A DNA stretch of 42,005 nt, filler included, from an uncultured virus (IMG/VR IMGVR_UViG_2061766007_001905) (Duplodnaviria; Heunggongvirae; Uroviricota; Caudoviricetes). It is 15 parts of one record of this genome, joined end to end, with 100 filler letters (N's around TTAATTAATTAA, not from the genome) between each part and the next. Parts side by side here need not be neighbours in the genome. Positions count along the whole stretch, not along the records: positions 25,881 to 27,003 come from IMGVR_UViG_2061766007_001905; positions 27,104 to 35,083 come from IMGVR_UViG_2061766007_001905; 13 more parts are not named here. One strand, 5' to 3'. The first letter of the stretch is position 1. Each line of letters opens with the position of its first letter. The notes under the pieces were generated by a model that worked only from the letters and a program-made list of their open reading frames with translations, was not told the origin of the DNA and made no database searches. Position numbers and translations under genes: made by a program. This document shows, piece by piece, positions 1,372 to 40,314 of the stretch.

Positions 1372-4300
1372 CGGCCAATACCATCGTTTGAAGACTGGTA
1401 TGCTGCATAACATGTTGCGTAGGTAGTATCTCCGGCATAGGCTGATGCAACTATATCGCAATACCTGCCAAAGCGTACCCTCGCGACATTGGTTGCTTGG
1501 TTCGTGGTTGCTACCTTGACACGCCGTTCGTTGCCGTCCTGTTGCAAGATGTTGTAATAATAGTCCGTAACCCAGGATGATACGGTGCTTGAACGGCGAC
1601 TTTTCTTGAAGGCAACGAAAGACTCGGCATTTAAACACCCCTTGTCAGTCCATTCTGTCGTTGCTGCAGTCCAACACTCAAGACCCCACATCTTGTTATA
1701 TTGGTTCTGCGCGATGTAAGACGTATCTCCGAAACCTATTGAATTTCTGACACCTGTTGTCTCACCAGCATTTCCACCACGTCCACAAAGGGTCTCAACG
1801 TCTCTTGTGCCGAACCATACCATCAACAGGTTTGCCATGTCCTTTGATGTCTCGTAAGGAACGGTAGAGTACTCTCCATTGACTACGCCCGTTTGGAATG
1901 TACGNNNNNNNNNNNNNNNNNNNNNNNNNNTTTGCTTGCAGGCAGGTTCCTTGCGTTTCCGTCTACGTCGTACTGCCAGCTGGTATTGGTCGTATTAGCA
2001 TTAGTTGTACCACGCGAAACAACCTTGCTGCTGATTGAGCGCAGTCCGCTCGTCGCCGTACCGCCCGTTGTAACTCCTGTAGCGAAACCCTGATAAACTC
2101 CGATGAGCTCTGCCTTGTGTTCAACCCAATCTGGCTCGATGGCTTCTACTTCGTCAGAGTCCGTGACAATCACTTCGACACCAGACTTTGATGCTGACGT
2201 GTTCCTGCAACAGAAATAGAGATACTTTGCACCGTCTGGAACGGATCTGAAGTCGTAGTCACCTTCATCGTTCATGAAGTCTGCAGGATTCCCGTTACTG
2301 CTCGCCATCTGCAATCTGCCGAAGGATATGGTGTTGCCTAACTCATCCGTGAATGCATGGGAGTATGAACTGTGGTTGATGCCTGGGAAACGTACTTGTC
2401 TCATGCCTTCAACCAGCACCCTGTACACCGAGATACTATTGTCGGTAACTATGAAATCGTCTATCGTTCCCTCACTTGAATCTCCCCACGTTATCGCTTT
2501 CCCGGCCCTGTATAGTGTATCGCCGATTTGGTGTCTTACCGTAGTTCCGCTCTGTGAGGGGCAGGTNNNNNNNNNNNNNNNNNNNNNNNNNNNNNNNNNN
2601 NNNNNNNNNNNNNTCGGCAAGTAAAGGAATATGTCATATCCCTCACCGTCTTGGTCATGCAGCGATATTGTTCCACCTTGTGCCGTATTTACAACACCTG
2701 CGGTTGCGTTTGGCCATCCCGTCTTCGCAAGTTTCGTGACGTTCATCTTGTGAGTTTGTGGATTAACCTTTCCTGCGCAGACCTGACACTTGTCGCGCAG
2801 CAGCTTAATGTGTCCGCTCGGTTCATAGTTTCCGATGTAAAACTCTTTTGTACCTTGCCCGTAAGATTGTGATGTCCTGTAGTCACGTCCTGTCTTGTTG
2901 TCCTCGTTGGTGATGTTCGCAGGGTCTGTTGTCGAGTCGTCGAATATGTAGTGGGAGAACTGGGAAGCTTCCAATTCGAGACCGCACTGCGTGAAGAAAC
3001 TTTTCATCGACTCAAAGTCATCCACAACGTCTATGAGCTGTACTTTACCGATAAGGGCCGGGTATGTACGTTCTGTACCATCATCATTGAGACCCATGAA
3101 ACCATTCATGAACGGTCGCAGCATGGTAGACATGACACGGCCGGACATTCCCTCTATGCGAACTTTGTTTACGTTCGGACACATCTGCATGAGATTTTGC
3201 CATGACAGGTAAGGACATTCTGCAAAGTTCAATGCTGTGATGTTTGATGTTCCTTGCAACGTCAAGCCGCTGTGATGCAACTTCGGCAAATAACGCAACG
3301 TGAGAGTTTGCAGTGTTGGCGGCATGACCAAAGTCTCAAGTGGAGAACCTTCAGGCAGAAGGATTCTCGTCAAACTTGTGCCACCAGCAAGGAACGTATT
3401 GAGACGCGTATGTTTTGAAATGTCGAATACGCCAGAAGTTCCAGTGTGTACTGCGGTCTGCCCCGTTATGTCAACCACTTCGAGTTTCGACGTGTTTCCA
3501 AGGGTTATCGGCGCATTTGACACGCCTACCGTCGCTGGCATGATAAGTTTAGACAGCATCGTGCAAAGGGAAAGCCCTACCGTACCATNNNNNNNNNNNT
3601 TGATACACGACGCACCGCCAAGCATCAGTGGGTCATTTGTTGCCAAAGTACCCGTGAAGTTGAGTTGTAAACTTTCACCAGCCGCCGCCCTTGACGGTCC
3701 TTGCAGCCATAAACCGTTTAGCTTGTAACCGAAATAATAGAGGTCACCGCTCTTCAACGTAAGACTTGACGGAGTGTCACCTGAATTTCGGACAACCGTG
3801 AATGTTATAACGTCTCCATTGTAGTTTCCTGCACTGTAGCGAGCGTCAAGAAGCCTTGCACGGTCAGTAATGAATTGGGTTCTGTGCAATTCCCTGTTTC
3901 CAGTGAGTGTATAGACGTAGTTCAAATCGTCAATGGTGTCGATGTACTTCAGCTTTCCAGACTTGTTGTNNNNNNNNNNNNNNNNNNNNNNNNNNNNNNN
4001 NNNNNNNNNNNNNNNNNNNNNNNNNNNNNNNNNNNNNNNNNNNCCTTCAATTCATCTTCAAAGTTGGCAAGAACAAGACACCACAGCCAACTGCTGTGAC
4101 CCTCGAATGCGTACTTCGCACGTTCGGAGTCATACGTATCACGGGTTACATTGTAAAGATAGACAAGGAACGCATCGTTACGGANNNNNNNNNNNNNNNN
4201 NNNNNNNNNNNNNNNNNNNCCATCCCAAGTACGCCAAAGAATATTTTTAGCCCTCTGGTCAACACTCGCCCAATAGTCGGTGAAGAGGTAGTATGTCAGC

Positions 4301-7300
4301 AGGTGGTTAATGTCAAAGTATTGGGAAGCCTCCGTCTTGAACTTATCCGACACCCACTTTGCCTTGCTTGCTTCGCTCCNNNNNNNNNNNNNNNNNNNNN
4401 NNNNNNNNNNNNNNNNNNNNNNNTTAATTAATTAANNNNNNNNNNNNNNNNNNNNNNNNNNNNNNNNNNNNNNNNNNNNCAATGACCCAATTGCTTAAAG
4501 CCTCGTCAGACGTTAGCGGAGTTCGATAATAACGTAAGCCACGTATTCTTACGTCTGCCTTGTCAGAGTCGATGGTAATTGAGGCTGGACTGTTCTGTCG
4601 CAACGACGTGATGTATGTATTTGCACGGCTTAGCACTCCATTGATGAAGAGCATAGCCAAGCCACGACCATTACGAACTGGCTGAACAATGAAGGCAAGA
4701 TGAATCCACTTGTCAATTGCAATGTTCATTGATACACCATGAGGACGCGTGACTTTCAACGGAACCTTATTCGATTCGTCAACGATATTGCCTTCATAGT
4801 CTATGTAGTTACCGTCAGCATCAATAAGGTCTTCTGCCGTCGTAATCTCTTCAACGCCTCCGAAATACAGACCCGCTTCCTCTGTCGTTATCTTTATACC
4901 CATTGGGTAGCCATTTCCTTCGTTGTCGCAAAGGCAATGGAGAATCGTTGCGCCACGCTCGATGACCTGGCTGACCATCATTTCCATTTCCAAAGTCATT
5001 CCTTGTTTCTGGATGGAGTAGTCGTTGGTCCCGTCAAGCACNNNNNNNNNNNNNNNNNNNNNNNNNNNNNNNNNNNNNNNNNNNNNNNNNNNNNNNCACC
5101 CGTTCGTTCTCCAGTCAACACCGATGAAGGAAGTAATTCCACCCCAATCTGCCGGGTTGGCTTCACCGTTTGAGCGACCTGTTGCAGTCAACTTAGTCAT
5201 ATAACCAATAGTCTCTTCCTCAGTGACGCCACTCGCTTGGTTGACCGTTACATTGAATGTACGAACGGAANNNNNNNNNNNNNNNNNNNNNNNNNNNNNN
5301 NNNNNNNNNNNNNNNNNNNNNNNNNNNNNNNNNNNNNNNNNNNNNNNNNNNNNNNNCAATGTCTGTGTAACGATTCCGTCAACGGCTATTTCAATCGTGC
5401 TGTTTAGAGTATCGCTATTCCATGCGGCAAGGTCAAATTCAAGTTCCTCGAATTGGTTCACGGCAACGGAAAGTGGCGTTGCCCCATAAGCAAATGGCAA
5501 TGGCATACTCGACAACTGAGCAACATCCGTGTGCAGTCGCAAGCCAACATAAGGCGTAATGCCTCCAGCCTTCAAAACGTCAACGCTGACCGCATTGCTC
5601 AACAAGCCAGCACTTTCCGCAATCAACTGCACGTTGTGTCTTCCGGCAGACAGATTTTCTGCTGTCAGATAGACATAGTTTCGACCCGTACCTGATATTG
5701 TATCGGTTGCATGTAATTGACCATCCAACCATACACGCAAAGTCGTACCAGTAGGAACGGTATAGGTATAGGGTATGGCAATCTGACCGTTTGAATTGGT
5801 ATATCCGTTACTCAACGCCAACTGACTTGCAGGGTCGAAAGTCGTAGCCAAATCCATTGTGATAACGACAACACTCTTCGAACCGCGACTGGTCTTCACC
5901 TCTTCGTCAATAGGTGTTGTTGCCACGACGCTAATGTTGACAGTTCCCGCCTGGTTGATGATTTCAGGACTAAGCGNNNNNNNNNNNNNNNNNNNNNNNN
6001 NNNNNNNNNNNNNNNNNNNNNNNNNNNNATATACGGTTGTCGTGCCAACCTTCACAGTTACGGCTACTGTCTGTGCAGGAAAGTTCACTCTCTCACTTGC
6101 GCCCTCAAACTTACGCAAGCAGTCGTAACCCCATCTAATACTGATGCTGTCACCAAGTTTTATTCTTGATGCAGTCAATAGTTCCGTTGTGATAACAGGC
6201 TGTATGATTTCTCCAACTTCCTGCGCTGCCGGAATCATTACGGTCAAGTCGTCCAGCATGTCACCTTGCGCATTAAAGAAGTTTAGTTCTATCATGGTGC
6301 CGTCCTGGNNNNNNNNNNNNNNNNNNNNNNNNNNNNNNNNNNNNNNNNNNNNTTAATTAATTAANNNNNNNNNNNNNNNNNNNNNNNNNNNNNNNNNNNN
6401 NNNNNNNNGCGAGTCAAGCTCCTCTTTCAGTTGGAAATACCGTGACACCTCGCCTGCGAACACGGTACGCAACAATGCCTTCTCCTTCGGGGAAAGAACG
6501 CCGTCAACGCCAGCATCGGCTACGAGCTTAGAGATGTACGAATCAATGGCACGTTTCAGTTCCTCAAGCGCCTCATTCATGTCCTTAATGAGTTGGCTGT
6601 ACACTGGTGCAAGCGTGTTACCATTGCATCGTGGCGTAAAGTCCGATGCATCCGAACCGTCAGCATAATCGTTCCATGCCGCTATCAAGGAAGGGTTCTG
6701 AAGGTTTACGCTGACTGACAATTGCGCTTCCGAAACCCATGCAGGATAACTATTCTCGTTGTATGATGAAAATGGCTCGGAACCATTCAGGAACAAGAAT
6801 AAGTCATAGAAAACGAGATTCGCCTTGTCAAACGCGCCAAAATAGGTATAACCATCACGGTACTCGCTGTCGTCATTGTAAATTCCGTAATCTTTCGCTT
6901 GTGAATTTAATGACCAATACCTATCTGATAATTCCTCAAACAATATTCTCAACCGTCTCTTTTCCGCACCGCCCGTTATAATATTGTCGGATGCCACATT
7001 GCTAATCATCTCGAGCGCGGTAACGGTGTCCACGTCACGTATCATGACCCATTGCCAAGAACCGTTCGCGTGCGTCCACTTCCACATCCTTCCACCCGTA
7101 GATGCGGGCTCGAGGGACGTGTCAAAGTACAGGGTCTTCGTGTGCTTGTCGTATTCCGACGAATCCCATGAACTCTCCGGCTGCGTCACGGACGGGCTGC
7201 CCTGCCCGTAGNNNNNNNNNNCATGCTCCTGTAATTTCGCCTTCAGAAACGTTTCGACGCGTTCCTTTTTCATGCCCCATTCAGTCCCGTCGGGATTTGT

Positions 7301-7360
7301 GCCACCCCAGTCCTGGTTAAGGTTGGTGATTTCCTCGTCTCTTACTGTTCTCTTTGCCAT
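1372..7360 (-). CDS. Giant tail fibre/adhesin (about 2000 aa span, split by gaps and two linkers): helical repeats, LamG-like, CotH-kinase-like, LRR and C-terminal C-type-lectin-like domains
   Basis: Starts MAKRTVRDEEITNLNQDWGG; LamG-like KWIHLAFIV..MLFINGVL..RIRGLRYYRTPLT (about 4480-5040); YYLFTDYWASVDQRAKN (4240-4295); LRR-like LETLVMPPTLQTLTLRYLPKL; GLECWTAATTEWTD near the end. The frame reads through 1838-1904 as RTFQTGVVNGEYSTVPYETSKDMAN. Continuity across the linkers is inferred. Confidence 0.75.
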
Positions 7361-7372
7361 ATTTTTTGTTTT

Positions 7373-7461
7373 TTACCACGGTTCGTTNNNNNNNNNNNNN
7401 NNNNNNNNNNNNNNNNNNNNNNNNNCATTGCCATCATCAAACGCCTCCTGAACCCGCTCAT
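7373..7461 (-). CDS. Small tail-associated protein (gapped)
   Basis: MSGFRRRLMMAM..gap..NEPW*; start overlaps the upstream stop; FRRRLMM starts are typical of Bacteroidales phage tail-region proteins. Confidence 0.5.
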
Positions 7462-8023
7462 TGCCGTGCGGCCTCCCATTCCGCGTATAATGCAAGGTTG
7501 TCCTCAATGCTCACCTGATATGTGCGCCCCATCTCCCAAGTTGGCTCTTCCGCCCACCTGACCTGCGACGGGAGGATAAGGTCGAAATCCTCACTTGACA
7601 CGGTAAACTGCATCATGTATTCATTCACCCTTCCCGCTTCGCCGTCCTGAAAGGCTATCGTAAGGCCTGATACCGCCCCCCATACGTTCAGCACGTTCGG
7701 GTAGATGGAGATGAACGTTTCCGTCTGGCTTATCTTCCTCGTCCTGTCAACGAGCTTGGATATCGTCTCGCTAAGGCGATACGCAAAGTCGGAGGATATG
7801 GCGTTTTCAGAGTTCTCCGATGGAAGGACGTCAACGGGCGTCCTGAACTGGTGCGCAGGCTTGGCGAACCAATACGTCTCACCACCTTTCTTGAACATCA
7901 CCATGTCCTCTGAGGCTATACCGTCTGCGCTCGCATCAACGTTTCCGATTCCGCTTATTGTCCTCAGCCCCTTCACGAAAGCGACGAGGACGTTCCACTC
8001 CTCAGCCGTGAGCCTTCCCGTGG
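7458..8023 (-). CDS. Tail-associated protein (start in gap)
   Basis: TGRLTAEEWNVLVAFVKGL...IYPNVLNVWGAVSGLTIAF...VNEYMMQF...LPSQVRWAEEPTWEMGRTYQVSIEDNLA; located in the tail module. Confidence 0.65.
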
Positions 8024-8078
8024 NNNNNNNNNNNNNNNNNNNNNNNNNNNNNNNNNNNNNNNNNNNNNTTCCTTTCTT

Positions 8079-8348
8079 TTATAAGTTAAACGGGAAACAC
8101 AAGGGGAACGCCTTTGCATCCGCTTGCGCTGGCGGTTCCATTCCAATGTCGAAGTTCCCGAAGGTATAGANNNNNNNNNNCTTCACCCTCGCTATCGTAT
8201 GCACGATACGCTCGAGTTCATTGAAGTTGCTGGAAACGGTCTGGCTGACGGGAAGCGTGGTGGTCGTGTGAATGACACGCATCACCGTTAGGTTCCCGTT
8301 CTCCTCCTTCTTGTTTATGGTATATCCTATGTCACCTCCGTATTCCAT
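8079..8348 (-). CDS. Tail-associated protein (internal gap)
   Basis: Ends AFPLCFPFNL, an FPxxFPxxL terminus common in tail-tip proteins. Confidence 0.5.
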   Translation of the reverse strand: MEYGGDIGYTINKKEENGNLTVMRVIHTTTTLPVSQTVSSNFNELERIVHTIARVKXXXXYTFGNFDIGMEPPAQADAKAFPLCFPFNL

Positions 8349-8354
8349 TGTCCT

Positions 8355-11300
8355 TTACCTCTCGATTGCTATCATCAATGGCGCGACGCCGTTGCTCTTA
8401 CTTTGAATCTTGTTTATTACAGGANNNNNNNNNNNNNNNNNNNNNNNNNNNNNNNNNNNNNNNNNNNNNNNNNNNNNNNNNNNNNNNNNNNNNNNNNNNN
8501 NNNNNNNNNNNNNNNNNNNNNNNNNNNNNNNNNNNNNNNNNNNNNCATGAGGACATTCTGCGTATTGCCTTCCTTGTCAATGGTCACAATCTGCGACCTC
8601 AACTGAAGGGACTGTCCTGGCAACACGGCAATGAACCTCGCAAGGTATCCGCCACAGGAGAAAAGCCCAGCGTTCCATTTCCATTCCTCGTCCGTTGCGT
8701 TTTTTGGTGACAGCTGATTTACTCCTTCCTCAGCCCATGCATTCTCATAAGAGATGATTCGCGGGTCTGCACATACTATCACTGCATTGCCAAGGAGGCT
8801 CCTCAGATAACCGTCGAGCGTTTCGGATTGTGAATAACCCATGAGTCCTTGCCAATTGATGACGAACGGGTCTGCCTCGTTCACTATCGTGAGGCGCGTT
8901 CCGTTCCGTGCGTATGTCATTATGCGCTTCAACGAGTCATGTACGCTGTTGTCATTGAAGAGGAGGAACGTCTTTGTCTCCGCGTCAAAGGTGATATTAG
9001 TTTCCTCCGCCCAATTATTCAGTTCATTTCCGAAAAGGGCCGAGTCATAGAACGGCAGGGCTACGATAGGAGGAACAGCAGAAAAACCGTCGTTCAACGA
9101 CACGTTCCTTGCCTTAATCTGCACGGACTTGATGATGACGTTGTTGACGTCAGCGTCATCCATCACCTCACCCATGTTCACTATAATTGGATATCTCGTG
9201 TTCCAATCGACAATCGTCACGTTCTCCGTCGTGAGTCCTTGTATGTCAAGGTCACNNNNNNNNNNNNNNNNNNNNNNNNNNNNNNNNNNNNNNNNNNNNN
9301 NNNNGTTTCCGTTGATGCCGATACCGGCTCTCATTAACCCATTCTTCGTAACGGACAGCTCTATTTGGTCCTTGAGCAGGTTGATTGAACCCTGCCAGTC
9401 CTCCTCTGCCTTCCTNNNNNNNNNNNNNNNNNNNNNNNNNNNNNNNNNNNNNNNNNNNNNNNNNNNNNNNNNNNNNNNNNNNNNNNNNNNNNNNNNNNNN
9501 NNNNNNNNNNNNNNNNNNNNNNNNNNNNNNNNNNCGGTAAGCACAGTACTTACATCTCCCCTCCTTACCATGAGCTGCGGATACGTGCAGTTGTACCATT
9601 CCTCGAACTTGAAATAGAACGACAGGGTGTAAACCGTGTCCTGCTCGAGCGTGATGTTCGGCTGCTCTGGCAGCTTTATCACTATTCCGTCCCCGTAGTT
9701 CGNNNNNNNNNNNNNNNNNNNNNNNNNNNNNNNNNNNNNNNNNNNNNNNNNNNNNNNNNNNNNNNNNNNNNNNNNNNNNNNNNNNNNNNNNNNNNNNNNN
9801 NNNNNNNNNNNNNNNNGCAAAGTCGGAATTGAGGATAAGGTTCATCAATCCAACGGACATCCCGTTTACCTTCTGCATGATGGAGCCAATCTGCTGCACG
9901 ATGGAACTGCTGCCCTCCGAACCGAACACCGCCGTATAGATGTAGTCTGTCAGTGCAAACACGGCTTTCTGCGCCGCCNNNNNNNNNNNNNNNNNNNNNN
10001 NNNNNNNNNNNNNNNNNNNNNNNNNNNNNNNNNNNNNNNNNNNNNNNNNNNNNNNNNNNNNNGTCTTCCGATGTCTCTTCACCGCTCACGGGGTCTATCA
10101 ACGTCACGGGCTTGTACCAGTGGTCGCCCTCCTTCACGGCGTTTTCCTCGTCAAGCATCGGGTCGGTGGCCGTAGTGAACGTATGNNNNNNNNNNNNNNN
10201 NNNNNNNNNNNNNNNNNNNNNNNNNNNNNNNNNNNNNNNNNNNNNNNNNNNNNNNNNNNNNNNNNNNNNNNNNNNNNNNNNNNNNNNNNNNNNNNNNNNN
10301 NNNNNNNNNNNNNNNNNNNNNNNNNNNNNNNNNNNNNNNNNNGCTTTCCTCAACCGCCCATTCTTCTCCGCCATTCAGGTATGTTCCAAGGTTCTTGAGC
10401 TTTGTCCTTACGTCGTATAATGTAACCGTTACCCACCGTCCGTTGTCGCCAGAGCCANNNNNNNNNNNNNNNNNNNNNNNNNNNNNNNNNNNNNNNNNNN
10501 NTTAATTAATTAANNNNNNNNNNNNNNNNNNNNNNNNNNNNNNNNNNNNNNNNNNNNGTACCGCCGCCCGCGCTCCCCACATAGGTTATGAGGGTATCGA
10601 CCTTCTTCTCGTAGCTTTCCCTTCTACCTACAATCCTCTCGTTGCCGACGTCTATCCTGATGTTGTTCGGGTCGGTCAAGTGCGTGACAAGCTTCCTTAT
10701 CTTTGTTTCAAGGCGTTTGGAAGTGCCGCCGANNNNNNNNNNNNNNNNNNNNNNNNNNNNNNNNNNNNNNNNNNNNNNNNNNNNNNNNNNNNNNNNNNNN
10801 NNNNNNNNNNNNNNNNNNNNNNNNNNNNNNNNNNNNNNNNNNNNNNNNNNNNNNNNNNNNNNNNNNNNNNNNNNNNNNNNNNNNNNNNNNNNNNNNNNNN
10901 NNNNNNNNNNNNNNNNNNNNNNNNNNNNNNNNNNNNNNNNNNNNNNNNNNNNNNNNNNNNNNNNNNNNNNNNNNNNNNNNNNNNNNNNNNNNNNNNNNNN
11001 NNNNNNNNNNNNNNNNNNNNNNNNNNNNNNNNNNNNNNNNNNNNNNNNNNNNNNNNNNNNNNNNNNNNNNNNNNNNNNNNNNNNNNNNNNNNNNNNNNNT
11101 CCTCGAAGTCTATGCGGTACTCTCCTGCGGATACGTCGAACGGTGTGTTATTGACATTGTGCTCATTCTCCTGCGTATTCTCATAGAATGGAACGATGAC
11201 GAACGTCCTGCCCACCAACGGGCTTGAATAGTTCTCAGTGTCGTAATTTGGAAGGAATGAAACCTGCAAATCGGTGTCCTGTATCCGCATCTCGTCCGTG

Positions 11301-17558: not shown

Positions 17559-17562
17559 AGAG

Positions 17563-17635
17563 TTGCGGAGGGAGGACTCGAACCCCCGACCTCTTGGTTA
17601 TGAGCCAAGCGAGCTGCCAACTGCTCCACACCGCG
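17563..17635 (-). tRNA. tRNA-Met(CAT), initiator (fMet)-type, no encoded CCA
   Basis: CGCGGTG TG GAGC AGTTGGCA GCTC G CTTGG CTCATAA CCAAG AGGTC GGGGG TTCGAGT CCTCC CTCCGCA A folds to a cloverleaf; C1:A72 mismatch, A11-U24 and A73 are initiator features. Confidence 0.92.
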
Positions 17636-25275: not shown

Positions 25276-25780
25276 GCAGCCTTGATGACGAGGTACGGGT
25301 CGGAGAAGTAGTCGTTGGTGTCCGCCCGTCTCGACGCCACGTATTCCTCGCGGTCTATCAGCTTCTGCACGCCGTCCCATTCCTTCTTCTGGCGGAAGTA
25401 GATGACGGGAATCTTGCCGATGGGGTTGTCCTCCTCCTCTACCTCCCAACCGAACGAGCCCTGCGTGCAATGGTAGATGACGGAGTCGGTGAAGATGTCG
25501 AGGTGATAGGTGGTCTTCCCGGCAATGTCCTTGCCGTAATGGCCCCATGCGAACGTGATGAGGTTCTCGTACACGTCCCAGCGGGTGTAAATCTCGTCGT
25601 GCTTGGAGTTTGCGAGCACGCGAATCTGGCAGTCGGGCTCCCCTTTCTTGTTGCGGAACACGCGGAACAGCATTGCCGACTCCGTCTCCGATCCAGCCAG
25701 TCGCTTGCACTGGCGAATCTTGCTGTTGAAGTGCATCTTCTTCAGCAGATTCGTGAAAGCCTGAAAGCCTTCGTCCGCCC
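25276..25780 (-). CDS. Portal protein (SPP1 gp6-like), internal fragment
   Basis: KRLAGSETESA..NPIGKIPVIYFRQKKEWDGVQKLIDREE..ADTNDYFSDPYLVIK. Confidence 0.88.
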
Positions 25781-25880
25781 NNNNNNNNNNNNNNNNNNNN
25801 NNNNNNNNNNNNNNNNNNNNNNNNTTAATTAATTAANNNNNNNNNNNNNNNNNNNNNNNNNNNNNNNNNNNNNNNNNNNN

Positions 25881-26402
25881 TCTCCTTTCCGCAATGGGGA
25901 CAGACGATGGTGTGGGCGGTTTGCATCCCTTCCTCGATATCGTTACGCTCCTGTACGTCCTCTTGCTGTTTTTCATCTGTGAACTTCTGCTGCTGTATCG
26001 CTGGCTCATGGAAGTCAACGCCCATGTTGTCTGGTACGTTCTCCTTGATGATGGCTTCAAGGTATTCGGNNNNNNNNNNNNNNNNNNNAAGTCGATGTAG
26101 GACATGGACTGAATCTTATTGTCCTCGACAACGATTCTGAGCTTCTGTTTCTCAGAAAGGCCATGCATGATTGTGACCTCGCCCTTCTTCTCACCCAGCA
26201 GCTCCAGGGCCAGCTTCTTTCCGTGGCCACACAGGATTTTCATATTCTCGTCAACGATGATGGGATAGTACTGGCCGTATTCGTCCATACTCTCCGCAAG
26301 TGCCTTGACCTGTTCCTCGGGGTGAATGTTAGGGTTGTTTTCGTATGGTACGAGCTTTGACAGCTCAACCACCTTCTTCTCTTGCTTGATGTTCGTTTTC
26401 AT
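25881..26402 (-). CDS. ParB/Sulfiredoxin-like N-terminal domain protein with C-terminal CPHCG knuckle
   Basis: LVPYENNPNIH..LAESMDEYGQYYPIIVDENMKILCGHGKKLAL..DNK..IVCPHCGKE; ATG overlaps the upstream stop. Confidence 0.88.
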
Positions 26403-27003
26403 TGCATTATTGATGTTAGGAATTGTCTTGCTGAATTGATATATACCGATGCGGCCATAACAACGTGAGGGTCGATGTCGTAAACATCCTGCCAGGAGTA
26501 CTCGCGCTCGGGCCACAGTCCTGTACCCTTAGTCCATCCATCCTTAGAGCCATAGAGCACCCAAGGCAGATTGTCGTGCATGAAGTAGTGGATGACGGCC
26601 ATCACCTGCTCATGAGTCCAGTGTGATATCGGATTGTATCTGGTTTCCCCAGCTTTTGTCCTGTAGATGTTGGAGCCNNNNNNNNNNNNNNNNNNNNNNN
26701 NNCTGTGAACGTCTGCCGAGAATGAGAAACTTGATACCCATCCGTTCGCAGTATTCACGCTGCCCGGCATATTGCAGTTTCTCCATCCAACGGGAGTTCA
26801 TCTTTGCATCAGATGGGAACAGCATTTCGGGATGATCCGAAAGCCAACTCAGGGAAAGATGGTCGAGGTTGATGATGGTCATGCCGACTGGATGGTACTG
26901 ATACACCCATTGAAGGAATGCTGGATATTCCAGAGCCTTCGAGGTGCAGAACACACAACGATGGATTTCAGCCTGTTCACACACATACTGGAGAGCCAGC
27001 GAA
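26399..27003 (-). CDS. PAPS-reductase-family (PP-loop, adenine nucleotide alpha-hydrolase) protein, N-terminus missing
   Basis: Fragment starts SLAL (would follow SGGKD), then LEYPAF, ILGRRSQ (GxRxx) and RYNPISHWTHEQV (P(I/L)xxW) motifs. Confidence 0.75.
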
Positions 27004-27103
27004 NNNNNNNNNNNNNNNNNNNNNNNNNNNNNNNNNNNNNNNNNNNNTTAATTAATTAANNNNNNNNNNNNNNNNNNNNNNNNNNNNNNNNNNNNNNNNN
27101 NNN

Positions 27104-28378
27104 CCTGATACACTTGATGGCCCATACAGAAGGGAGCATGACACTACTGCGCAAAGTACCGTACAACAGGAACAGATACACGATGGTCATGCCTGGTATG
27201 TTGGCAATGGTGATGGCAAAGATTGCTACTGCAATCATAGCCATCTTCGCTGTCCTTATCTCGTTGCCAAACAAAAGGAACAGGAAACGGTTGTTCTGAA
27301 TGCGCTCATGCCATTTCCTGTTGCATGACAGTCTGACGTCGATATCGTGTCCCGATACAGATGATACGGCACACAGGATGCTGTCAACGGTACTCATGAG
27401 ACCTGAGAGTATCAGCAGCAGGAATGGATATACGAACCATTTGGGTGCAAACGCGATTACAGACGCTACGTTGGTGAGTTGTGTGTCAGGTATAGCTAAA
27501 TGTGCCCCTGCAGCTATAAACCCGAGGAAAGACAAGGAAATGGGCACGCAAGCGAAAATTAGTGCCGCAAACATCATCGACTTCTTCACTTGCCCCTCTT
27601 TGATGGAGAAAACACGCTGCCAAAACATTTGGTCGCCAAATGTACCAGAGAGCAATCCTATTGCCGTGGGAATTCCGAATGACAGCATGACATTGATGCC
27701 GTTTGAGTCGGTGAGCGATCCGAAAACTCCAGTTNNNNNNNNNNNAACGTGCCCGGCTCCGTATTGCTGAATATGATGGGCAGTCCTACTGCCAGCACAA
27801 CGATTATCCATAACATCTGCCAGAAGTCCGTCATGATTGATGCCCTGATTCCCTTGGTTAGAGTGTAGGCAAGGGGAATGAAGGCCAGCGCAATAGTGGT
27901 TCCGAAGAACGGAAGGCCAGTCAGCTTATGCAGGATTGTGGCACCTGCCAACAGTTGGACGGCAAAACTCAACGTCTGGAGTCCGAACGATTCCACAAGG
28001 TAGAGATTATGCGTTCGGTTGGAATACTTCTCACGGATGAATGCCGAGAACGTCCATCCGTCAGGTTTTATCTTGCGCATCCAGCTCGCAAAATAACCGA
28101 ACAATACCAAAGTCAGTACATTCGGCACTACAAACCAGAATACACCTACAAGTCCCTGAGTATAGGCTTTCTCTGCTGCTACGAACATCGATGGCGCCCA
28201 TACCCATGTGGCAGCGATTGANNNNNNNNNNNNNNNNNNNNNNNNNNNNNNNNNNNNNNNNNNNNNCTAAATAACTCTCCTTTGTTCCCTTTTCTCTGAT
28301 GAACCTAATCAGGAACATCAGCACGGCGAAGTAGCCCAATAAGAGCAAAACGCCGTCCATTTTAGTCAAAATTTCCAT
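27104..28378 (-). CDS. Sodium:solute symporter family transporter (Dur3/PutP-like), C-terminus missing
   Basis: Many TM helices; SIAATWVWAPSMFVAAEKAYTQG, YTLTKGIRASIMTDFWQ, GDQMFWQRVFS, GLMSTVDSILCAVSSV motifs. Confidence 0.9.
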
Positions 28379-28409
28379 TGTTCTTTTATGTGTAACATTT
28401 GTAATGCCG

Positions 28410-28441
28410 CAAATATACAAATTTATGTGCTTGATAGGCAC
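28410..28441 (-). promoter_or_regulatory. Bacteroidetes-type promoter -7 box with upstream imperfect palindrome
   Basis: Minus strand TATATTTG (28410-28417) matches TAnnTTTG; GTGCCTATCAAGCAC (28427-28441) lies near where the -33 TTTG is expected. Confidence 0.6.
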
Positions 28442-37840: not shown

Positions 37841-38501
37841 GCTCGATACCGTCATCATACGTTATCTTCATATCCATCTGGAAGAACTTCTTCTCTTCCT
37901 TGTCGTTGCCGTCCTCGCTCTCGTCTGGGCCTTGACGGGCATTCAGATAGGTCTCCATGTCGATGCCGTCACGCAGGTAGGCAATATCCAGATTCTCCTT
38001 TGTCAGCTCGTCGGTGAGGATGATGCAGGAGTCCATTTCCTGGACGTTGGTAATAGAGAATCCACCCGAATAGTTCAGTTCCAGATAGTCACGCATGATT
38101 TCGAGCACGTTCTGAATACTGGTAGCGTAGAGGATGAAGCGGTACTTCTTGTCGCCAACCGTAACCTTGGAGNNNNNNNNNNNNNNNNNNNNCTCCAACT
38201 CATAAGCCTCTCTGTTCTGGTTGCTGACCTCAATCTCCTTACATTCCCCGGCGGCTTGCGAGAACTGAATCTTCTGCAATACCTCACGGTCAATGTAGGT
38301 ACCTTTCTCAAACAGGACTTCGTTTCGCTCAACAGACGTTATCTGTCCTGTGTCCTTATCCACGAAATCCTCAGTCCATGTCTTCAACACACGGGCGCAG
38401 ATGTACTTATTCAACATGCGCTTCGGATCATCCGTCTTGAAGCGGATTTCATCCTTTCGCGTCTTGACCTTCTCATTGATGGGAACTTTCTTCTTTGCCA
38501 T
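37841..38501 (-). CDS. Phage protein with RpoB-insert-like N-terminal domain and DUF4494-like C-terminus, copy 1 (truncated)
   Basis: ARVLKTWTEDFVDKDTGQITSVERNEVLFEKG. Confidence 0.7.
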
Positions 38502-38697
38502 TGTTGTTCTGATTTGATGTTTTGTTGAGTTTCTTTGTCAGCTTCCTTGCCATGAGCCGCATGAGCCTTGCGCGGTTCTGTAGCCGAAGCGAGCTGTTGC
38601 CGAGTTCTTCCATTCTGGCCACCTCCGCCTTGATGATGGCGTCTGCCTCTTCAAGGAACTGGATGATGTTTTTCACGTCCGTCTTGCATACTTCCAT
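38473..38697 (-). CDS. Small hypothetical protein
   Basis: MEVCKTDVKNIIQFLEEA..NRARLMRLMARKL; starts next to the MBL stop. Confidence 0.7.
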   Translation of the reverse strand: MEVCKTDVKNIIQFLEEADAIIKAEVARMEELGNSSLRLQNRARLMRLMARKLTKKLNKTSNQNNNGKEESSHQ

Positions 38698-38698
38698 G

Positions 38699-39178
38699 TC
38701 AGTAGGGGTCTTTTGATAGGTCGATGGTCATGCCGGCATTGGCTGCGTACACGCACTTGCCAGTCAGTTCCGAAACCTCACGGACAAACCTTTTCTCGTC
38801 GGAGTTTCCGTCAGACAGGTGAATCAGTATGATGTCGCTCACGTCAGAGAGGTCGTTGTCCTGCAGTATCAGCTTGGTCGTGCCAAGTTCCATGTGTGAT
38901 TTCAGCAGCCTCGGACGCATGGAAGGCGGTACGCTTCCGTTCTCTATGTTCCTTGTCAGGATGTCGTCGGCATAGTTCGCCTCTATCATGACGTGGTTCA
39001 TGCGAGGAACAATCATGTCAAGCGTCATCGTATCGGTGACGAAAAGGATGCGGCCTGATTCTGGGTGGTCTATCACATAGCCTACACAGGGGCATTTGGA
39101 ACCGTCATTGTTGGAATGGTCGAGGGAAATCGGCATAATCTTGAAGTCGCCGACCTTGATGCCGTGCAGCGGCTCGAT
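38699..39178 (-). CDS. Metallo-beta-lactamase-fold hydrolase (YycJ-like nuclease), C-terminal part
   Basis: LDH..CVGYVI..ILFVTDT..IEANY..KSHM..ILIHLSDGNS. Confidence 0.85.
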   Translation of the reverse strand: MEPLHGIKVGDFKIMPISLDHSNNDGSKCPCVGYVIDHPESGRILFVTDTMTLDMIVPRMNHVMIEANYADDILTRNIENGSVPPSMRPRLLKSHMELGTTKLILQDNDLSDVSDIILIHLSDGNSDEKRFVREVSELTGKCVYAANAGMTIDLSKDPY

Positions 39179-39513: not shown

Positions 39514-40314
39514 CTACTCTGGTTCGTTGTATGCCAGGGAGAACTCCTTCGGTACGAAGCTCTTCACTGGCATTGGTATTGCTTTCTCGATGCAAAGGGT
39601 ATTCTTGCGTATCTCATAGNNNNNNNNNNNNNNNNNNNNNNNNNCGGCATCCTGCAAGTACTTGCTGATTACAAGAAGCGCACGGTTTGTGTCGAAGGTG
39701 TTCACGATGAACGATTGATGCAGCTCTATGCCGTCATCATACGTAATCTTCATGTCCATCTGGAAGAACTTCTTCTCCTCCCTGTCGTGTCCGTCCTCGT
39801 TCTCGTCAGGCCCTTGCCGTGCGTTCAGGTACGTTTCCATGTCGATGCCGTCACGCAGGTAGGCGATATCCAGATTCTCCTTTGTCAGCTCGTCGGTGAG
39901 GATGATGCAGGAATCCATTTCCTGAACGTTGGTGATGGTGAATCCGCCTGAGTAGTTCAGTTCCAGATAGTCGCGCATGATTTCGAGCACGTTCTGAATG
40001 CTGGTGGCGTAGAGGATGAAGCGGTACTTCTTGTCGTCAACAGTACACTTGGNNNNNNNNNNNNNNCTCTCCAGTTCGTATGCCTCTCGGTTCTGGTTGC
40101 TTACCTCAATCTCCTTGCACTCTCCGGCCGCCTGCGAGAACTGAATCTTCTGCAATACCTCGCGATCAATGTAGGTGCCTTTCTCGAAGAGGACCTCGCT
40201 ACGTTCAACGGGCGTAATCTGTCCCGTGTCCTTATCCACGAAGTCCTCGCTCCATGTCTTGATGACACGGGCGCAGATGTACTTATTCAACATGCGCTTC
40301 GGATCATCCGTCTT
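39514..40314 (-). CDS. Phage protein with RpoB-insert-like N-terminal domain and DUF4494-like C-terminus, copy 2 (start missing)
   Basis: ARVIKTWSEDFVDKDTGQITPVERSEVLFEKG; near-identical to 37841-38501. Confidence 0.7.
   Translation of the reverse strand, partial: KTDDPKRMLNKYICARVIKTWSEDFVDKDTGQITPVERSEVLFEKGTYIDREVLQKIQFSQAAGECKEIEVSNQNREAYELEXXXXXXKCTVDDKKYRFILYATSIQNVLEIMRDYLELNYSGGFTITNVQEMDSCIILTDELTKENLDIAYLRDGIDMETYLNARQGPDENEDGHDREEKKFFQMDMKITYDDGIELHQSFIVNTFDTNRALLVISKYLQDAXXXXXXXXXYEIRKNTLCIEKAIPMPVKSFVPKEFSLAYNEPE

What the first reader, a model, noticed from the sequence alone, without database searches (positions are those of the whole stretch)
25881..28441. Na+:solute symporter + PP-loop (PAPS-reductase-family) enzyme + ParB-like protein at the head of the packaging operon: candidate import-and-modify system
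Seen: three co-oriented genes downstream of a TAnnTTTG promoter and upstream of the missing-terminase/portal region. PP-loop and ParB genes overlap (ATGA); the symporter-enzyme and ParB-portal junctions cross artificial linkers, so other genes may be missing. The symporter motifs (ATWVWAPS..AY..G, GDQMFWQR) resemble the Dur3 urea/polyamine branch of the SSS family. No C-terminal ECG(L/I)H motif of true CysH reductases is visible in the enzyme. Known: PP-loop enzymes such as DndC, TilS and QueC activate substrates by adenylation; ParB-N proteins accompany phage DNA-modification genes near terminases; IbrA/IbrB is a PAPS-reductase/ParB pair. Inference: the phage imports a small amine or other solute and attaches it to DNA or a virion component around packaging, possibly to evade restriction. 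A dedicated transporter in such a module is unusual, and I know of no characterised chemistry.
Basis: partly seen in the sequence, partly recalled or inferred. Interest (0 to 1): 0.8.

Follow-up and report, generated by a model that had tools for sequence, protein, structure and literature searches.

The report
Phage transporter coupled to PP-loop enzymes
A gut phage carries a membrane importer next to ATP-using "PP-loop" enzymes and ParB-like proteins just before its DNA-packaging genes, and the same importer sits beside PP-loop enzymes in many unrelated phages and bacteria, which points to an undescribed import-and-attach system, probably for marking DNA.

Summary
The three genes are real, but the window is 15 scaffolds joined by artificial linkers. 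It therefore shows only the PP-loop/ParB pair as adjacent (ATGA overlap). Contiguous relatives settle the order. The closest (L063, 81-94% aa identity) reads SSS transporter, predicted 12-stranded outer-membrane channel, PP-loop enzyme, ParB with C-terminal CPHCG, IbrB-like ParB, IbrA-like PAPS-reductase, TerS, TerL. A TAnnTTTG promoter motif is conserved upstream.

The transporter clade is DUR3-like, but the polar urea ligands are replaced by an aromatic/Asp pocket. It is almost always beside a PP-loop enzyme: 69 of 70 distinct viral versions and 75 of 80 bacterial loci. Three PP-loop families take this role: PAPS-reductase-like, Asn-synthase-like with a dead glutaminase, and an unnamed 365-aa SGGIDS family lying between TerS and TerL of T4-like phages.

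Best reading (about 0.45): the transporter supplies a small amine-like solute, which the PP-loop enzymes ligate with ATP onto DNA, helped by ParB partners. Published precedents are CmoY and the ParB-dependent T-dioxygenases. The chemistry is unproven. My literature searches found no description of this transporter link.

The parts
28410..28425 (-). two adjacent TAnnTTTG (Bacteroidota -7-type) promoter motifs, 32-47 nt upstream of the transporter start
   Evidence: A motif at this place is conserved in 41 of 46 distinct upstream regions of related loci, against 44 of 920 random 150-nt windows.
28268..28378 (-). SSS transporter, N-terminal piece (MEILTKMDGV...KESYL), followed by an assembly gap
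   Evidence: 86% identical to the L063 transporter.
27748..28221 (-). SSS transporter, TM1-TM5 piece with the AATWVWAPS and FWFVVPN motifs
   Evidence: Pfam SSF 33.6 bits. phrog_20720 E 7e-41. 94% identical to L063.
27104..27733 (-). SSS transporter, piece with GDQMFWQR and STVDS. It is cut by the scaffold end at about residue 427 of roughly 550.
   Evidence: Pfam SSF 25.8 bits. phrog_20720 E 1e-48..
27004..27103 (.). artificial scaffold linker (N44+TTAATTAATTAA+N44). In relatives this position holds the transporter C-terminus, a 12-stranded outer-membrane channel gene (SP201) and the first ~57 codons of the PP-loop gene.
26703..27002 (-). PP-loop (PAPS-reductase-like, 258-aa family) enzyme, residues ~58-157. 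Its first residue is the last S of SGGKDS.
   Evidence: 90% identical to L063.
26399..26677 (-). PP-loop enzyme C-terminal piece with its stop codon (26399-26401). There is no ECGLH motif.
26091..26402 (-). ParB/Srx-fold N-domain protein (ParBZn). Its start ATG overlaps the PP-loop stop (ATGA).
   Evidence: phrog_620 E 3e-30 and phrog_498 (ParB-methyltransferase N-terminus) E 6e-24..
25882..26067 (-). ParBZn C-terminal piece ending in CPHCGKE, cut by the scaffold end
   Evidence: 89% identical to L063.
25781..25880 (.). artificial scaffold linker. In relatives IbrB-like ParB, IbrA-like PAPS reductase, TerS and TerL lie here.
25278..25778 (-). portal protein fragment on its own 505-nt scaffold
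   Evidence: Pfam SPP1_portal E 2.9e-13. phrog_64.

Best explanation
The window holds part of a conserved phage cassette that heads the packaging operon of a temperate Bacteroidota siphophage. The parts are a DUR3-like SSS inner-membrane importer, a PAPS-reductase-like PP-loop ATP pyrophosphatase and a ParB/Srx-fold partner. Relatives add a small outer-membrane channel and an IbrB/IbrA-like ParB/PAPS-reductase pair.

Proposed mechanism:
1. The transporter brings in a small solute, most likely a cationic amine. In Bacteroidota the channel carries it across the outer membrane first.
2. The PP-loop enzymes use ATP to adenylate an oxygen on the acceptor.
3. The imported nucleophile displaces AMP and becomes covalently attached.
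4. The ParB-like proteins hold or activate the enzymes on DNA, so that phage DNA is marked after replication, around the time of packaging.

Shown here: the genes, their order in relatives, the PP-loop fold, the near-universal linkage of transporter and PP-loop enzyme, and the conserved pocket.
Inferred: the direction of transport, the amine nature of the solute, DNA as the acceptor, and the timing.
My odds: transporter feeds the adjacent PP-loop enzymes, about 0.65. The acceptor is DNA, about 0.45 overall.
For: Synteny:
- MT836198.1 has SSS, PP-loop (SAGKDS, Pfam PAPS_reduct 40 bits), ParB, PAPS_reduct and ParB, with ATGA overlaps.
- Among 70 distinct transporter sequences from IMG/VR loci, 62 have an IbrA-like gene nearby and 4 have a deletion remnant of one. 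Three more have a 365-aa SGGIDS protein. The last has only 33 nt of downstream sequence.
- The linkage survives rearrangement. Orders seen: SSS-IbrA-IbrB; ParB-SSS-IbrA-IbrB; ParB-IbrA-IbrB-SSS-TerL; tandem SSS copies; a distant (25-26% identical) SSS-like gene in the same slot.
- It holds across different terminase types, including TerS-SSS-PPloop-PPloop-TerL in T4-like contigs.

Cellular genomes (80 loci examined):
- 61 carry the PAPS-type module.
- 7 have a Toprim-like 326-aa protein, an Asn_synthase (E about 1e-70) and the SSS.
- 7 have the 365-aa SGGIDS family beside the SSS.
- 5 have none of these.
- The Asn-synthase partners lack the N-terminal Cys in 5 of 5, so they need an outside nucleophile.

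Transporter pocket:
- Residues mapped from the DUR3 urea site are the same in 27 of 27 sequences from all contexts. The W-x-W dyad and D312 are kept. Y117, Q124, N305, Y315 and W338 become F, T/C, L, F and F, and there is an extra invariant Asp.

Enzyme and channel:
- The PP-loop model has pLDDT 96.4. Its best fold matches are TtuA, PAPS reductases, GMP synthetase ATPPase, FAD synthase and TilS.
- SP201 is modelled as a 12-stranded barrel like KdgM (TMt 0.66).

Precedents in print (passages read):
- CmoY, an Asn-synthetase homologue, ligates glycine onto DNA 5-carboxymethylcytosine with ATP. ParBc proteins co-occur with it (PMC12783734).
- A ParB-like protein is an obligate activator of a phage DNA T-dioxygenase, and terminases often co-occur with such pathways (PMC13229309).
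- ParBZn matches the ParB N-terminus of phage DNA methyltransferases: phrog_498, E 1e-26.
Against: - No experiment. Neither the solute nor the acceptor is identified.
- The window itself does not show the transporter next to the enzyme (linker), and it lacks the IbrA/IbrB genes.
- Deletion variants keep the transporter but lose the enzymes: 4 distinct transporter sequences, one of them seen in 9 loci.
- In the IbrA-based survey, 17 of 53 ParB-IbrA-IbrB triads and all 22 plain IbrB-IbrA pairs lack the transporter. The enzymes can therefore work without it.
- 5 of 80 genome loci show no PP-loop neighbour.
- No gene that would install a 'handle' on DNA (such as CmoX) was seen in the cassette.
- The surveys are the best 80 hits of each scan, and many are close relatives.
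- The amine reading of the pocket rests on an alignment to DUR3, not on a structure with ligand.
- IbrA-like proteins keep one Cys in 94% of sequences and others in 43-83%, so sulfur or metal chemistry is not excluded for them.
Confidence: 0.45

Rival explanations
1. Import-coupled small-molecule chemistry, not DNA. The PP-loop enzymes adenylate or amidate the imported solute itself, or ligate it to a metabolite, peptide or virion protein. The ParB/Srx-fold proteins would act as small-molecule kinases or regulators rather than DNA clamps.
For: - The SSS/PP-loop linkage also occurs in cellular genomes without terminase.
- The IbrB-like protein weakly matches the ParB-fold ADP-dependent serine kinase SerK, E 1.7e-4.
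- One high-GC viral contig has a sugar aminotransferase, an inositol-1-P synthase-like gene and glycosyltransferases inside the cassette.
- PAPS-reductase-fold enzymes include FAD synthase and CysD, which act on small molecules.
Against: - In phages the cassette sits next to or inside the terminase genes.
- The ParB N-domain is a recurrent partner of DNA-modifying enzymes.
- The cellular Asn-synthase version comes with a Toprim (Topo VI-A-like) protein. This is a weak match: 27.7 bits against a cut-off of 24.1 in 1 of 5 proteins, with 2 more below the cut-off.
Confidence: 0.22
2. The ParB/PAPS-reductase proteins are IbrA/IbrB-type regulators of late or prophage gene expression or of packaging initiation. 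The transporter is an unrelated passenger.
For: - IbrA/IbrB are known only as co-activators of prophage eib genes (annotation quoted in PMC5874904 and PMC4490671).
- Many IbrB-IbrA pairs and triads lack the transporter.
- The cassette lies directly before TerS.
Against: - This does not explain why the same transporter clade sits beside Asn-synthase-like and 365-aa PP-loop enzymes where no ParB is present.
- It does not explain the conserved PP-loop catalytic motifs.
Confidence: 0.1
3. Lysogenic-conversion 'moron'. The transporter and outer-membrane channel give the lysogen a nutrient uptake route and are expressed from their own promoter. The neighbouring enzymes are functionally independent.
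For: - A conserved TAnnTTTG motif lies just upstream of the transporter.
- The transporter/channel pair is kept in some variants that lost the enzymes.
- The position between the replication and packaging modules is a usual moron site.
- The family is common in Bacteroides ovatus and B. xylanisolvens genomes.
Against: - There is no gap or terminator between the channel and PP-loop genes; they are 1 nt apart in L002.
- The transporter stop overlaps the PP-loop start in MT836198.1.
- The linkage to PP-loop enzymes recurs in T4-like contigs (inferred lytic, not tested here) and in non-phage loci.
Confidence: 0.08
4. Counter-ion supply. The transporter imports polyamines that neutralise DNA charge during packaging.
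For: - It lies next to the terminase genes, and between TerS and TerL in T4-like contigs.
- The scaffold is DUR3-like with an aromatic/Asp pocket.
- That yeast DUR3 carries polyamines and that phage heads contain polyamines is recalled by me, not taken from a call.
Against: The same clade is tied to PP-loop enzymes in cellular operons without packaging genes. This reading gives the enzymes and ParB proteins no role.
Confidence: 0.07
5. Sulfur-assimilation auxiliary gene. The enzyme is a CysH-type PAPS/APS reductase, as PHROG labels the family.
For: phrog_424 and phrog_2302 are labelled PAPS reductase. Pfam PAPS_reduct hits occur in relatives.
Against: - No C-terminal ECGLH Cys.
- No Cys is conserved at 90% or more among 63 sequences of the 258-aa family.
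- Scores are far below the NCBIfam CysH cut-offs: 20-27 bits against 154-254.
- A classical SGGKDS ATP-pyrophosphatase loop is present.
Confidence: 0.02

Closest known systems
CmoA/CmoX/CmoY cytosine hypermodification of Synechococcus phage S-B43 (PMC12783734, passages read)
   Same: A phage PP-loop (AMP-forming) ligase uses ATP to attach a small amine (glycine) to DNA after replication. ParBc-domain proteins co-occur, and other ligase clusters have unknown amine substrates.
   Different: - CmoY belongs to the Asn_synthase family. The window enzyme is PAPS-reductase-like.
- No CmoA or CmoX 'handle' genes were seen in the cassette.
- That paper mentions no transporter (the words transporter and symporter occur 0 times).
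- Only the T4-like and cellular versions found here have Asn-synthase-like partners.
ParB-dependent phage T-dioxygenases (5mYOX/ParB; PMC13229309, passages read)
   Same: A small ParB-fold protein without an obvious DNA-binding domain is the required partner of a post-replicative DNA-modifying enzyme. The genes often lie near terminase.
   Different: The enzyme there is an Fe/2-oxoglutarate dioxygenase, not a PP-loop ATPase. No transporter is involved.
IbrA/IbrB of E. coli ECOR-9 and YbdN/YbdM of K-12
   Same: A PAPS-reductase-domain protein (with DUF3440 in some) is paired with a ParB-like protein. Relatives of the window carry such a pair right after the window's two genes.
   Different: The window itself lacks this pair. 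Its own PP-loop/ParBZn pair is a shorter paralogous pair. The mechanism of IbrA/IbrB is unknown, and they are not reported with a transporter.
DndB/DndC, SspD and BrxP DNA phosphorothioation enzymes (PMC12914056, passages read)
   Same: A PAPS-reductase-domain ATP pyrophosphatase acts in DNA modification. The IbrA-like protein hits the BrxP model at E 2e-7 and DndC at E 1e-9.
   Different: No DndD/SspC-type P-loop NTPase and no cysteine desulfurase were seen in the cassette. The 258-aa family has no Cys conserved at 90% or more. Scores are far below the family cut-offs.
DUR3 urea/H+ symporter (PDB 9j7c, 9vim; PMC11840088, passages read)
   Same: It is the best solved-structure relative, E 4e-33. 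The TM1 W-x-W dyad and the TM6 Asp of D-x-x-[YF]-W-Q are conserved.
   Different: Five urea-pocket residues differ: the polar Y117, Q124, N305 and Y315 become hydrophobic and W338 becomes F. An extra invariant Asp sits in TM8. There is no long C-terminal domain. The substrate is therefore probably not urea.
TilS (tRNA lysidine synthetase) and TtuA-type PP-loop nucleic-acid enzymes
   Same: Same fold (Foldseek E 5e-7 to 1e-4). Same logic: a base carbonyl is adenylated and then replaced by an amine (lysine) or by sulfur.
   Different: TM-scores are only 0.4-0.55. There are no Fe-S cysteines. The substrate here would be DNA rather than tRNA. This is an analogy, not membership.

Membership tests
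Sodium:solute symporter family (Pfam PF00474) | Match to the SSF profile above the gathering score | tested here: met
   Window pieces score 33.6 and 25.8 bits against 22.8. Full-length relatives score 84 bits.
DUR3 urea transporter subfamily | Urea-binding residues W93, W95, T98, Y117, Q124, N305, Y315, W338 and proton-site residues D312, E402 (AtDUR3 numbering) | tested here: not met
   W93, W95 and D312 are kept. T98 becomes S/A. Y117, Q124, N305, Y315 and W338 become F, T/C, L, F and F. E402 becomes N/I/V/A/K. This holds in 27 of 27 sequences.
PP-loop ATP pyrophosphatase (adenine nucleotide alpha-hydrolase fold) | SGGxDS loop after the first beta-strand | tested here: met
   The window copy is cut after SGGKD; only the final S is left. 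[W]S[GA]GKDS is nearly invariant in the 38 full-length relatives, including the 90%-identical L063 protein.
PP-loop ATP pyrophosphatase (adenine nucleotide alpha-hydrolase fold) | Rossmann-like alpha/beta fold shared with TtuA, GMP synthetase ATPPase and PAPS reductase | tested here: met
   AF2 model pLDDT 96.4. 65 PDB chains match at Foldseek E<=1e-3, and those listed are PP-loop enzymes.
PAPS/APS reductase CysH | C-terminal catalytic Cys in the ECG(L/I)H motif | tested here: not met
   The C-terminus is ...SARQFLTSIMQ. No Cys is conserved at 90% or more in 63 sequences. NCBIfam CysH scores are 20-27 bits against cut-offs of 154-254.
Pfam PAPS_reduct domain (PF01507) | Profile match above the gathering score | tested here: inconclusive
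   Window fragments: no hit at E 0.01. L002 homologue: no hit at E 0.05. L001 homologue 40.1 bits and L191 homologue 24.8 bits against 22.5. phrog_424 E 8e-15.
DndC-type DNA sulfurtransferase | Conserved Fe-S cysteines and a partner P-loop NTPase (DndD/SspC/BrxC) | tested here: not met
   No conserved Cys set in the 258-aa family. No NTPase gene lies between the transporter and TerS in relatives. The requirement is as stated in PMC12914056.
IbrA/IbrB (YbdN/YbdM) pair | PAPS_reduct + DUF3440 protein beside a ParB_N protein | tested here: not met
   Neither gene is in the window. Both are present in relatives. DUF3440 was found only in the L085 protein, E 6e-12.
Chromosome-partition ParB | ParB_N domain plus HTH DNA-binding domain plus C-terminal dimerisation domain | tested here: not met
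   ParBZn has only a ParB-like N-domain: PHROG 620 E 2e-39, no Pfam ParB_N hit at E 0.05. It has no HTH hit and ends in a single CPxCG.
KdgM/NanC small outer-membrane channels (for SP201 of relatives, not in the window) | Signal peptide and a 12-stranded beta-barrel | tested here: inconclusive
   Fold only: pLDDT 87; KdgM TMq 0.57, TMt 0.66, rmsd 4.0. No sequence-family hit.

The most novel reading that the evidence does not exclude
A dedicated clade of DUR3-like transporters exists to feed an exogenous amine to glutaminase-less PP-loop ligases. These ligases would write a TilS- or CmoY-like base hypermodification directly on DNA. Phages carry the writer with ParB partners at the head of the packaging operon, to disguise their DNA. 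Some bacteria pair the same transporter and ligase with a Toprim nuclease, as the restriction arm of a new modification-dependent defence system. The chemistry of the DNA would then depend on a solute taken from the environment.
Probability: 0.2. Interest if true: 0.92.

Novelty: new variant of a known kind. Interest (0 to 1): 0.8.

Why it matters
Phage DNA hypermodification pathways known so far build their appendages from host metabolites. A pathway with its own importer, and in Bacteroidota its own outer-membrane channel, would make phage DNA chemistry depend on what is present in the gut lumen.

It would also give a function to two things that currently lack one. One is the PAPS-reductase/ParB (IbrA/IbrB, YbdN/YbdM) pairs, which are widespread, uncharacterised, and routinely mis-scored as sulfur "auxiliary metabolic genes". 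The other is an orphan transporter clade found in at least 351 IMG/VR contigs and in 219 of 185,579 species genomes.

The natural deletion variants, and the Bacteroides ovatus and B. xylanisolvens genomes that encode the transporter (one IMG/VR locus, L115, encodes an identical transporter and carries the full cassette), make the question directly testable.

Tried and rejected
- The genome search 'own': no genome is held for this window.
- Pfam and PHROG on the window's own PP-loop fragments gave nothing. The family was assigned through relatives.
- The search for related loci with an alignment that contained the window fragments failed for lack of a conserved stretch. It was repeated without them.
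Binding is left untested.
- The look-up of sequencing runs (kind rna) on the B. ovatus-type locus listed no RNA holder. One run of uncertain kind is kept as contigs only. I did not lay it, so expression timing is open.
- PADLOC: no known defence family for the transporter, the 258-aa enzyme, the Toprim-like protein, the Asn-synthase-like protein or the 365-aa family.
- Pfam (E up to 10) and NCBIfam gave nothing for the 365-aa SGGIDS family. HHalign to the IbrA profile aligned only the PP-loop motif, at 4% probability. The ESM Atlas label 'Asparagine synthase family protein' is a lead only.
- The search of earlier findings by sequence returned nothing.
- Literature: searches were word searches of PMC and bioRxiv. 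I found no paper linking a solute symporter with PAPS reductase, ParB or Asn-synthase genes in phages. Subscription journals are not covered.
- CysH-type sulfur assimilation was rejected: no catalytic Cys.
- Urea as the substrate is judged unlikely: the polar ligands are replaced.
- One search carried a wrong-frame window row. It was replaced.


Full report
**What the window is.** The 42,005-nt window is not one molecule. It holds 14 copies of a 100-nt linker (N44+TTAATTAATTAA+N44), so it is 15 scaffolds of 505 to 7,980 nt. It has 121 N runs in all, 9,772 N, and these do not keep the reading frame. Most of the sequence is a temperate siphophage. It carries an SPP1-type portal fragment, tape measure, HK97-gp10-like protein, SSB, YopX, PcfJ-like protein, excisionase-like HTH and integrase. 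No whole genome is held for it.

**The observation.**
- All three genes are on the minus strand.
- The transporter is in three pieces: 28268-28378, 27748-28221 and 27104-27733. It is cut by the end of scaffold 11. Both long pieces pass Pfam SSF (33.6 and 25.8 bits against 22.8) and match phrog_20720, a family of unknown function (E 7e-41 and 1e-48).
- The PP-loop gene (26703-27002 and 26402-26677) and the ParB gene (26091-26402 and 25882-26067) share the 1,123-nt scaffold 10. They overlap by ATGA at 26399-26402.
- The PP-loop fragments hit no Pfam or PHROG family on their own.
- The portal fragment is a separate 505-nt scaffold.
- The window therefore proves only the PP-loop/ParB adjacency.
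- Two TAnnTTTG motifs lie side by side 32-47 nt before the transporter start. The motif count over the whole window is at chance: 11 found, 13.25 expected.

**Relatives give the true gene order.**
- In the INPHARED phage set, 1 of 50,697 records matched the transporter, and the same record matched the PP-loop piece. This is MT836198.1, 36-41% aa identity. Its order is transporter, 260-aa PP-loop protein (SAGKDS; Pfam PAPS_reduct 40.1 bits), ParB with a C-terminal CPKCG, a 384-aa PAPS_reduct protein, and ParB. Stops and starts overlap.
- IMG/VR holds 351 to 364 contigs with a relative of the transporter.
- The closest to the window in all seven pieces is L063, 81-94% aa identity. Its uninterrupted order is: transporter; SP201 (signal peptide, about 200 aa); PP-loop (WSGGKDS); ParBZn; IbrB-like ParB; IbrA-like PAPS-reductase; TerS; TerL.
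- The window's PP-loop fragment begins at the last S of SGGKDS.
- None of SP201, IbrB, IbrA, TerS or TerL is anywhere in the window at tblastn E<=1e-4. They are either unassembled or absent.

**The promoter is conserved.** In 41 of 46 distinct upstream regions of SP201-type loci, a TAnnTTTG motif lies 20-80 nt before the transporter start. The background is 44 of 920 random 150-nt windows of the same loci. In non-Bacteroidota-type loci it is 0 of 37. In L002 the channel and PP-loop genes are 1 nt apart. The transporter therefore heads a transcription unit that runs into the packaging genes.

**How general is the linkage in viral contigs?** I collapsed loci L001 and L007-L162 to 70 distinct transporter sequences and scanned them by tblastn with diverse queries.
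- 43 have the full Bacteroidota-type cassette.
- 19 more have an IbrA-like gene in other arrangements:
  - SSS-IbrA-IbrB-TerL (5)
  - SSS-PPloop-ParBZn-IbrA-IbrB (4, including MT836198.1)
  - SP201 type without the 258-aa gene (3)
  - ParBZn-SSS-IbrA-IbrB (2)
  - single cases, among them a lambda-like contig, and a high-GC contig in which a DegT aminotransferase, an inositol-1-P-synthase-like gene and two GT25 genes lie inside the cassette
- 4 carry a deletion that runs from within or just after SP201 to the end of IbrA. One of these 4 sequences was seen in 9 loci.
- 4 had no hit in that scan. Three of these turned out to carry a different PP-loop gene (next item). The fourth has only 33 nt of downstream sequence.
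- In T4-like contigs (Pfam gp16-like DNA_Packaging, Terminase_6N/6C) the order is TerS, transporter, one or two ~365-aa proteins with WSGGIDS, TerL.

**The reverse survey.** I queried with an IbrA-like alignment.
- 36 of 80 loci have the transporter.
- 2 have a 25-26% identical SSS-like gene in the same slot.
- 2 loci have the order ParBZn-IbrA-IbrB-SSS-TerL.
- 2 loci have two tandem transporter genes.
- 17 ParBZn-IbrA-IbrB triads, 3 ParBZn-IbrA loci and all 22 plain IbrB-IbrA pairs (IbrA at most 33% identical to the queries) lack it.

The enzymes therefore often occur without the transporter. The transporter almost never occurs without such enzymes.

**Cellular genomes.** One scan of 185,579 species genomes found 219 relatives, of which the best 80 were kept.
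- 61 carry the PAPS-type cassette. They are Clostridia and Bacteroidales, and look like prophages.
- 19 do not carry it.
  - 7 (Clostridia, Spirochaetota, Proteobacteria, Planctomycetota and others) have a conserved operon: a 326-aa protein, a small TPR protein, an Asn_synthase-family protein and the transporter.
    - The Asn_synthase-family protein is about 580 aa, with Pfam E about 1e-70.
    - The 326-aa protein matches the Topo VI-A/Spo11 Toprim domain weakly: 27.7 bits against 24.1 in one protein, below the cut-off in two, and none in two.
  - 7 (five Patescibacteria contigs, one with two copies, and a Xanthobacteraceae MAG) have a 365-433-aa SGGIDS protein. It is homologous to the T4-like phage proteins (E 1e-16 to 1e-45). 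In the six Patescibacteria loci a conserved 230-aa protein comes with it.
  - 5 have no PP-loop neighbour.
- In total, 75 of 80 loci have a PP-loop gene close to the transporter.
- All 5 Asn-synthase-like partners that I read start MG/MS/MT instead of MC. The Ntn glutaminase nucleophile is therefore missing, and the ligase must take its nucleophile from elsewhere.

**The transporter.**
- A family profile finds the DUR3 urea/H+ symporters as the best solved structures (E 4e-33). Next come a CHT-like protein (E 4e-25), vSGLT and the SGLTs.
- NCBIfam places it in no named subfamily: sss 115-131 bits against 184; PanF and PutP far below their cut-offs.
- I mapped the AtDUR3 urea site (PMC11840088, passages) onto 27 sequences from every context.
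  - W93 and W95 are kept as W.
  - D312 is kept as D.
  - T98 becomes S/A.
  - Y117 becomes F.
  - Q124 becomes T/C.
  - N305 becomes L.
  - Y315 becomes F.
  - W338 becomes F.
  - An extra invariant Asp lies in an S-[T/I/K]-x-D-[S/T] stretch of TM8.
- The pocket is the same in phage and cell versions (36-76% overall identity). One substrate class is therefore likely.
- The loss of polar urea ligands, with an aromatic box and two acidic residues, suggests a small cation such as an amine. That is inference.

**The enzymes and partners.**
- An alignment of 38 full-length members of the 258-aa family shows nearly invariant [W]S[GA]GKDS, GRRxxDGN, SP(I)xDWxHE and PPIY.
- In 63 sequences of that family no Cys is conserved at 90% or more.
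- The AF2 model has pLDDT 96.4. It matches TtuA, PAPS and APS reductases, GMP synthetase ATPPase, FAD synthase PAPS domain, CysD, TilS and LarE at TM 0.4-0.55. The fold is thus a generic PP-loop ATP pyrophosphatase, close to none of them.
- IbrA-like proteins keep FSGGKDS, one Cys in 94% of sequences and others in 43-83%. They weakly hit DndC and BrxP models.
- ParBZn has a ParB/Srx-type N-domain. It also matches the N-terminus of phage ParB-methyltransferase fusions (phrog_498, E 1e-26). It ends in a single CPxCG.
- The IbrB-like protein matches ParB_N (26.0 bits against 26.3) and, weakly, the ParB-fold serine kinase SerK.
- SP201 is modelled at pLDDT 87 as a signal helix plus a 12-stranded barrel. 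Its best matches are KdgM (TMt 0.66, rmsd 4.0), a designed 12-strand barrel, and NanC.

**What is in print.**
- E. coli YbdN/YbdM are an uncharacterised PAPS-reductase-DUF3440/ParB-like pair (passages).
- Phage PAPS-reductase homologues are said to 'deserve further investigation' (passage).
- PAPS-reductase-domain proteins DndC, SspD and BrxP make phosphorothioate DNA together with a P-loop NTPase (passages).
- Two recent papers are close precedents.
  - CmoY, an asparagine-synthetase homologue of a cyanophage, adenylates 5-carboxymethylcytosine in DNA and adds glycine. Other CmoY clusters are predicted to use unknown amines, and ParBc proteins co-occur (PMC12783734).
  - A ParB-like protein is an obligate activator of a phage post-replicative thymine dioxygenase. 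ParBs (27%) and terminases (19.2%) are among the commonest neighbours of such pathways (PMC13229309).
- In eight word searches I found no paper describing a solute symporter together with these genes in a phage.

**Reading.**
- The transporter is functionally tied to PP-loop enzymes, at odds of about 0.65. Four observations support this:
  - the linkage survives rearrangement and duplication;
  - it survives replacement of the enzyme family;
  - it survives transfer between phage types and into cellular operons;
  - all partner enzymes lack a working glutaminase.
- The most economical mechanism has three steps:
  1. import of a small nucleophile;
  2. ATP-dependent adenylation of an acceptor oxygen;
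  3. displacement of AMP by the imported nucleophile.
- I favour DNA as the acceptor (about 0.45 overall). The reasons are the ParB partners, the position at or inside the terminase genes, the CmoY and 5mYOX/ParB precedents, and the Toprim-like partner in the cellular operon.

**Evidence against this reading.**
- Deletion variants circulate that keep the transporter without the enzymes.
- Many triads lack the transporter.
- No handle-installing gene was seen in the cassette.
- 5 genome loci lack a PP-loop neighbour.
- Nothing has been measured.
- The surveys are biased to the best 80 hits of each scan and to gut metagenomes.

**Verdict.** The cassette is best filed as a new variant of phage DNA-hypermodification or ParB-assisted modification systems, distinguished by a dedicated importer. 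Its chemistry is unknown.

Noticed in passing
window 1-42005: The window is a pseudomolecule. 15 scaffolds are joined by six-frame-stop linkers, and 23% of bases are N, in 121 runs that shift the frame. Any gene order across linkers is unsupported. Scaffolds 7 and 8 carry plus-strand genes, unlike the rest.
   Followed up: yes
window 37842-38537 and 39646-40314 (minus strand): Two near-identical copies of a phrog_35807 gene of unknown function lie on one scaffold. They flank a metal-dependent hydrolase fragment (38702-39178, phrog_392). This could be a tandem duplication or strain variants merged by the assembler.
   Followed up: no
window 17562-17635 (minus strand): A tRNA-Met (CAT) gene lies inside the structural-gene scaffold, beside the tape-measure region.
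   Followed up: partly
window 1374-5974 (minus strand), scaffolds 2-3: Pieces of one very large protein matching phrog_14959 (2,494-position profile, unknown function). One piece has a weak Laminin_G_3 (concanavalin-like) hit below the Pfam cut-off (22.1 bits against 27.6). It is probably a giant tail fibre or host-recognition protein.
   Followed up: no
L243-L246, L249, L250, L256 (genome contigs): A conserved cellular operon: a 326-aa Toprim (Topo VI-A-like, weak match) protein, a small TPR protein, an Asn-synthase-like ligase with a dead glutaminase, and the same transporter clade. In one case a WYL regulator lies next to it. No PADLOC family matches. It could be an undescribed defence or modification system.
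   Followed up: partly
L247, L251/L252, L255, L258, L261 (Patescibacteria contigs); L151, L135 (T4-like viral contigs): An unnamed ~365-aa WSGGIDS protein family with no Pfam or NCBIfam model is shared by CPR bacteria and T4-like phages, always next to the transporter. In CPR genomes a conserved 230-aa protein of unknown family comes with it. In the phages the genes lie between TerS and TerL.
   Followed up: partly
L085/L089 (high-GC IMG/VR contig), 6313-10806: A DegT-type aminotransferase, a myo-inositol-1-phosphate-synthase-like gene and two GT25 glycosyltransferases are inserted between the transporter and the PP-loop/IbrA/IbrB genes. This hints that some versions build a more complex appendage.
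   Followed up: no
L054, L044, L045, L047, L048 and others; L065, L084, L096: Recurrent natural deletions remove everything from within or just after the channel gene to the end of IbrA, while keeping the transporter, TerS and TerL. They were seen in contigs from several different metagenomes. They are ready-made controls for experiments.
   Followed up: partly
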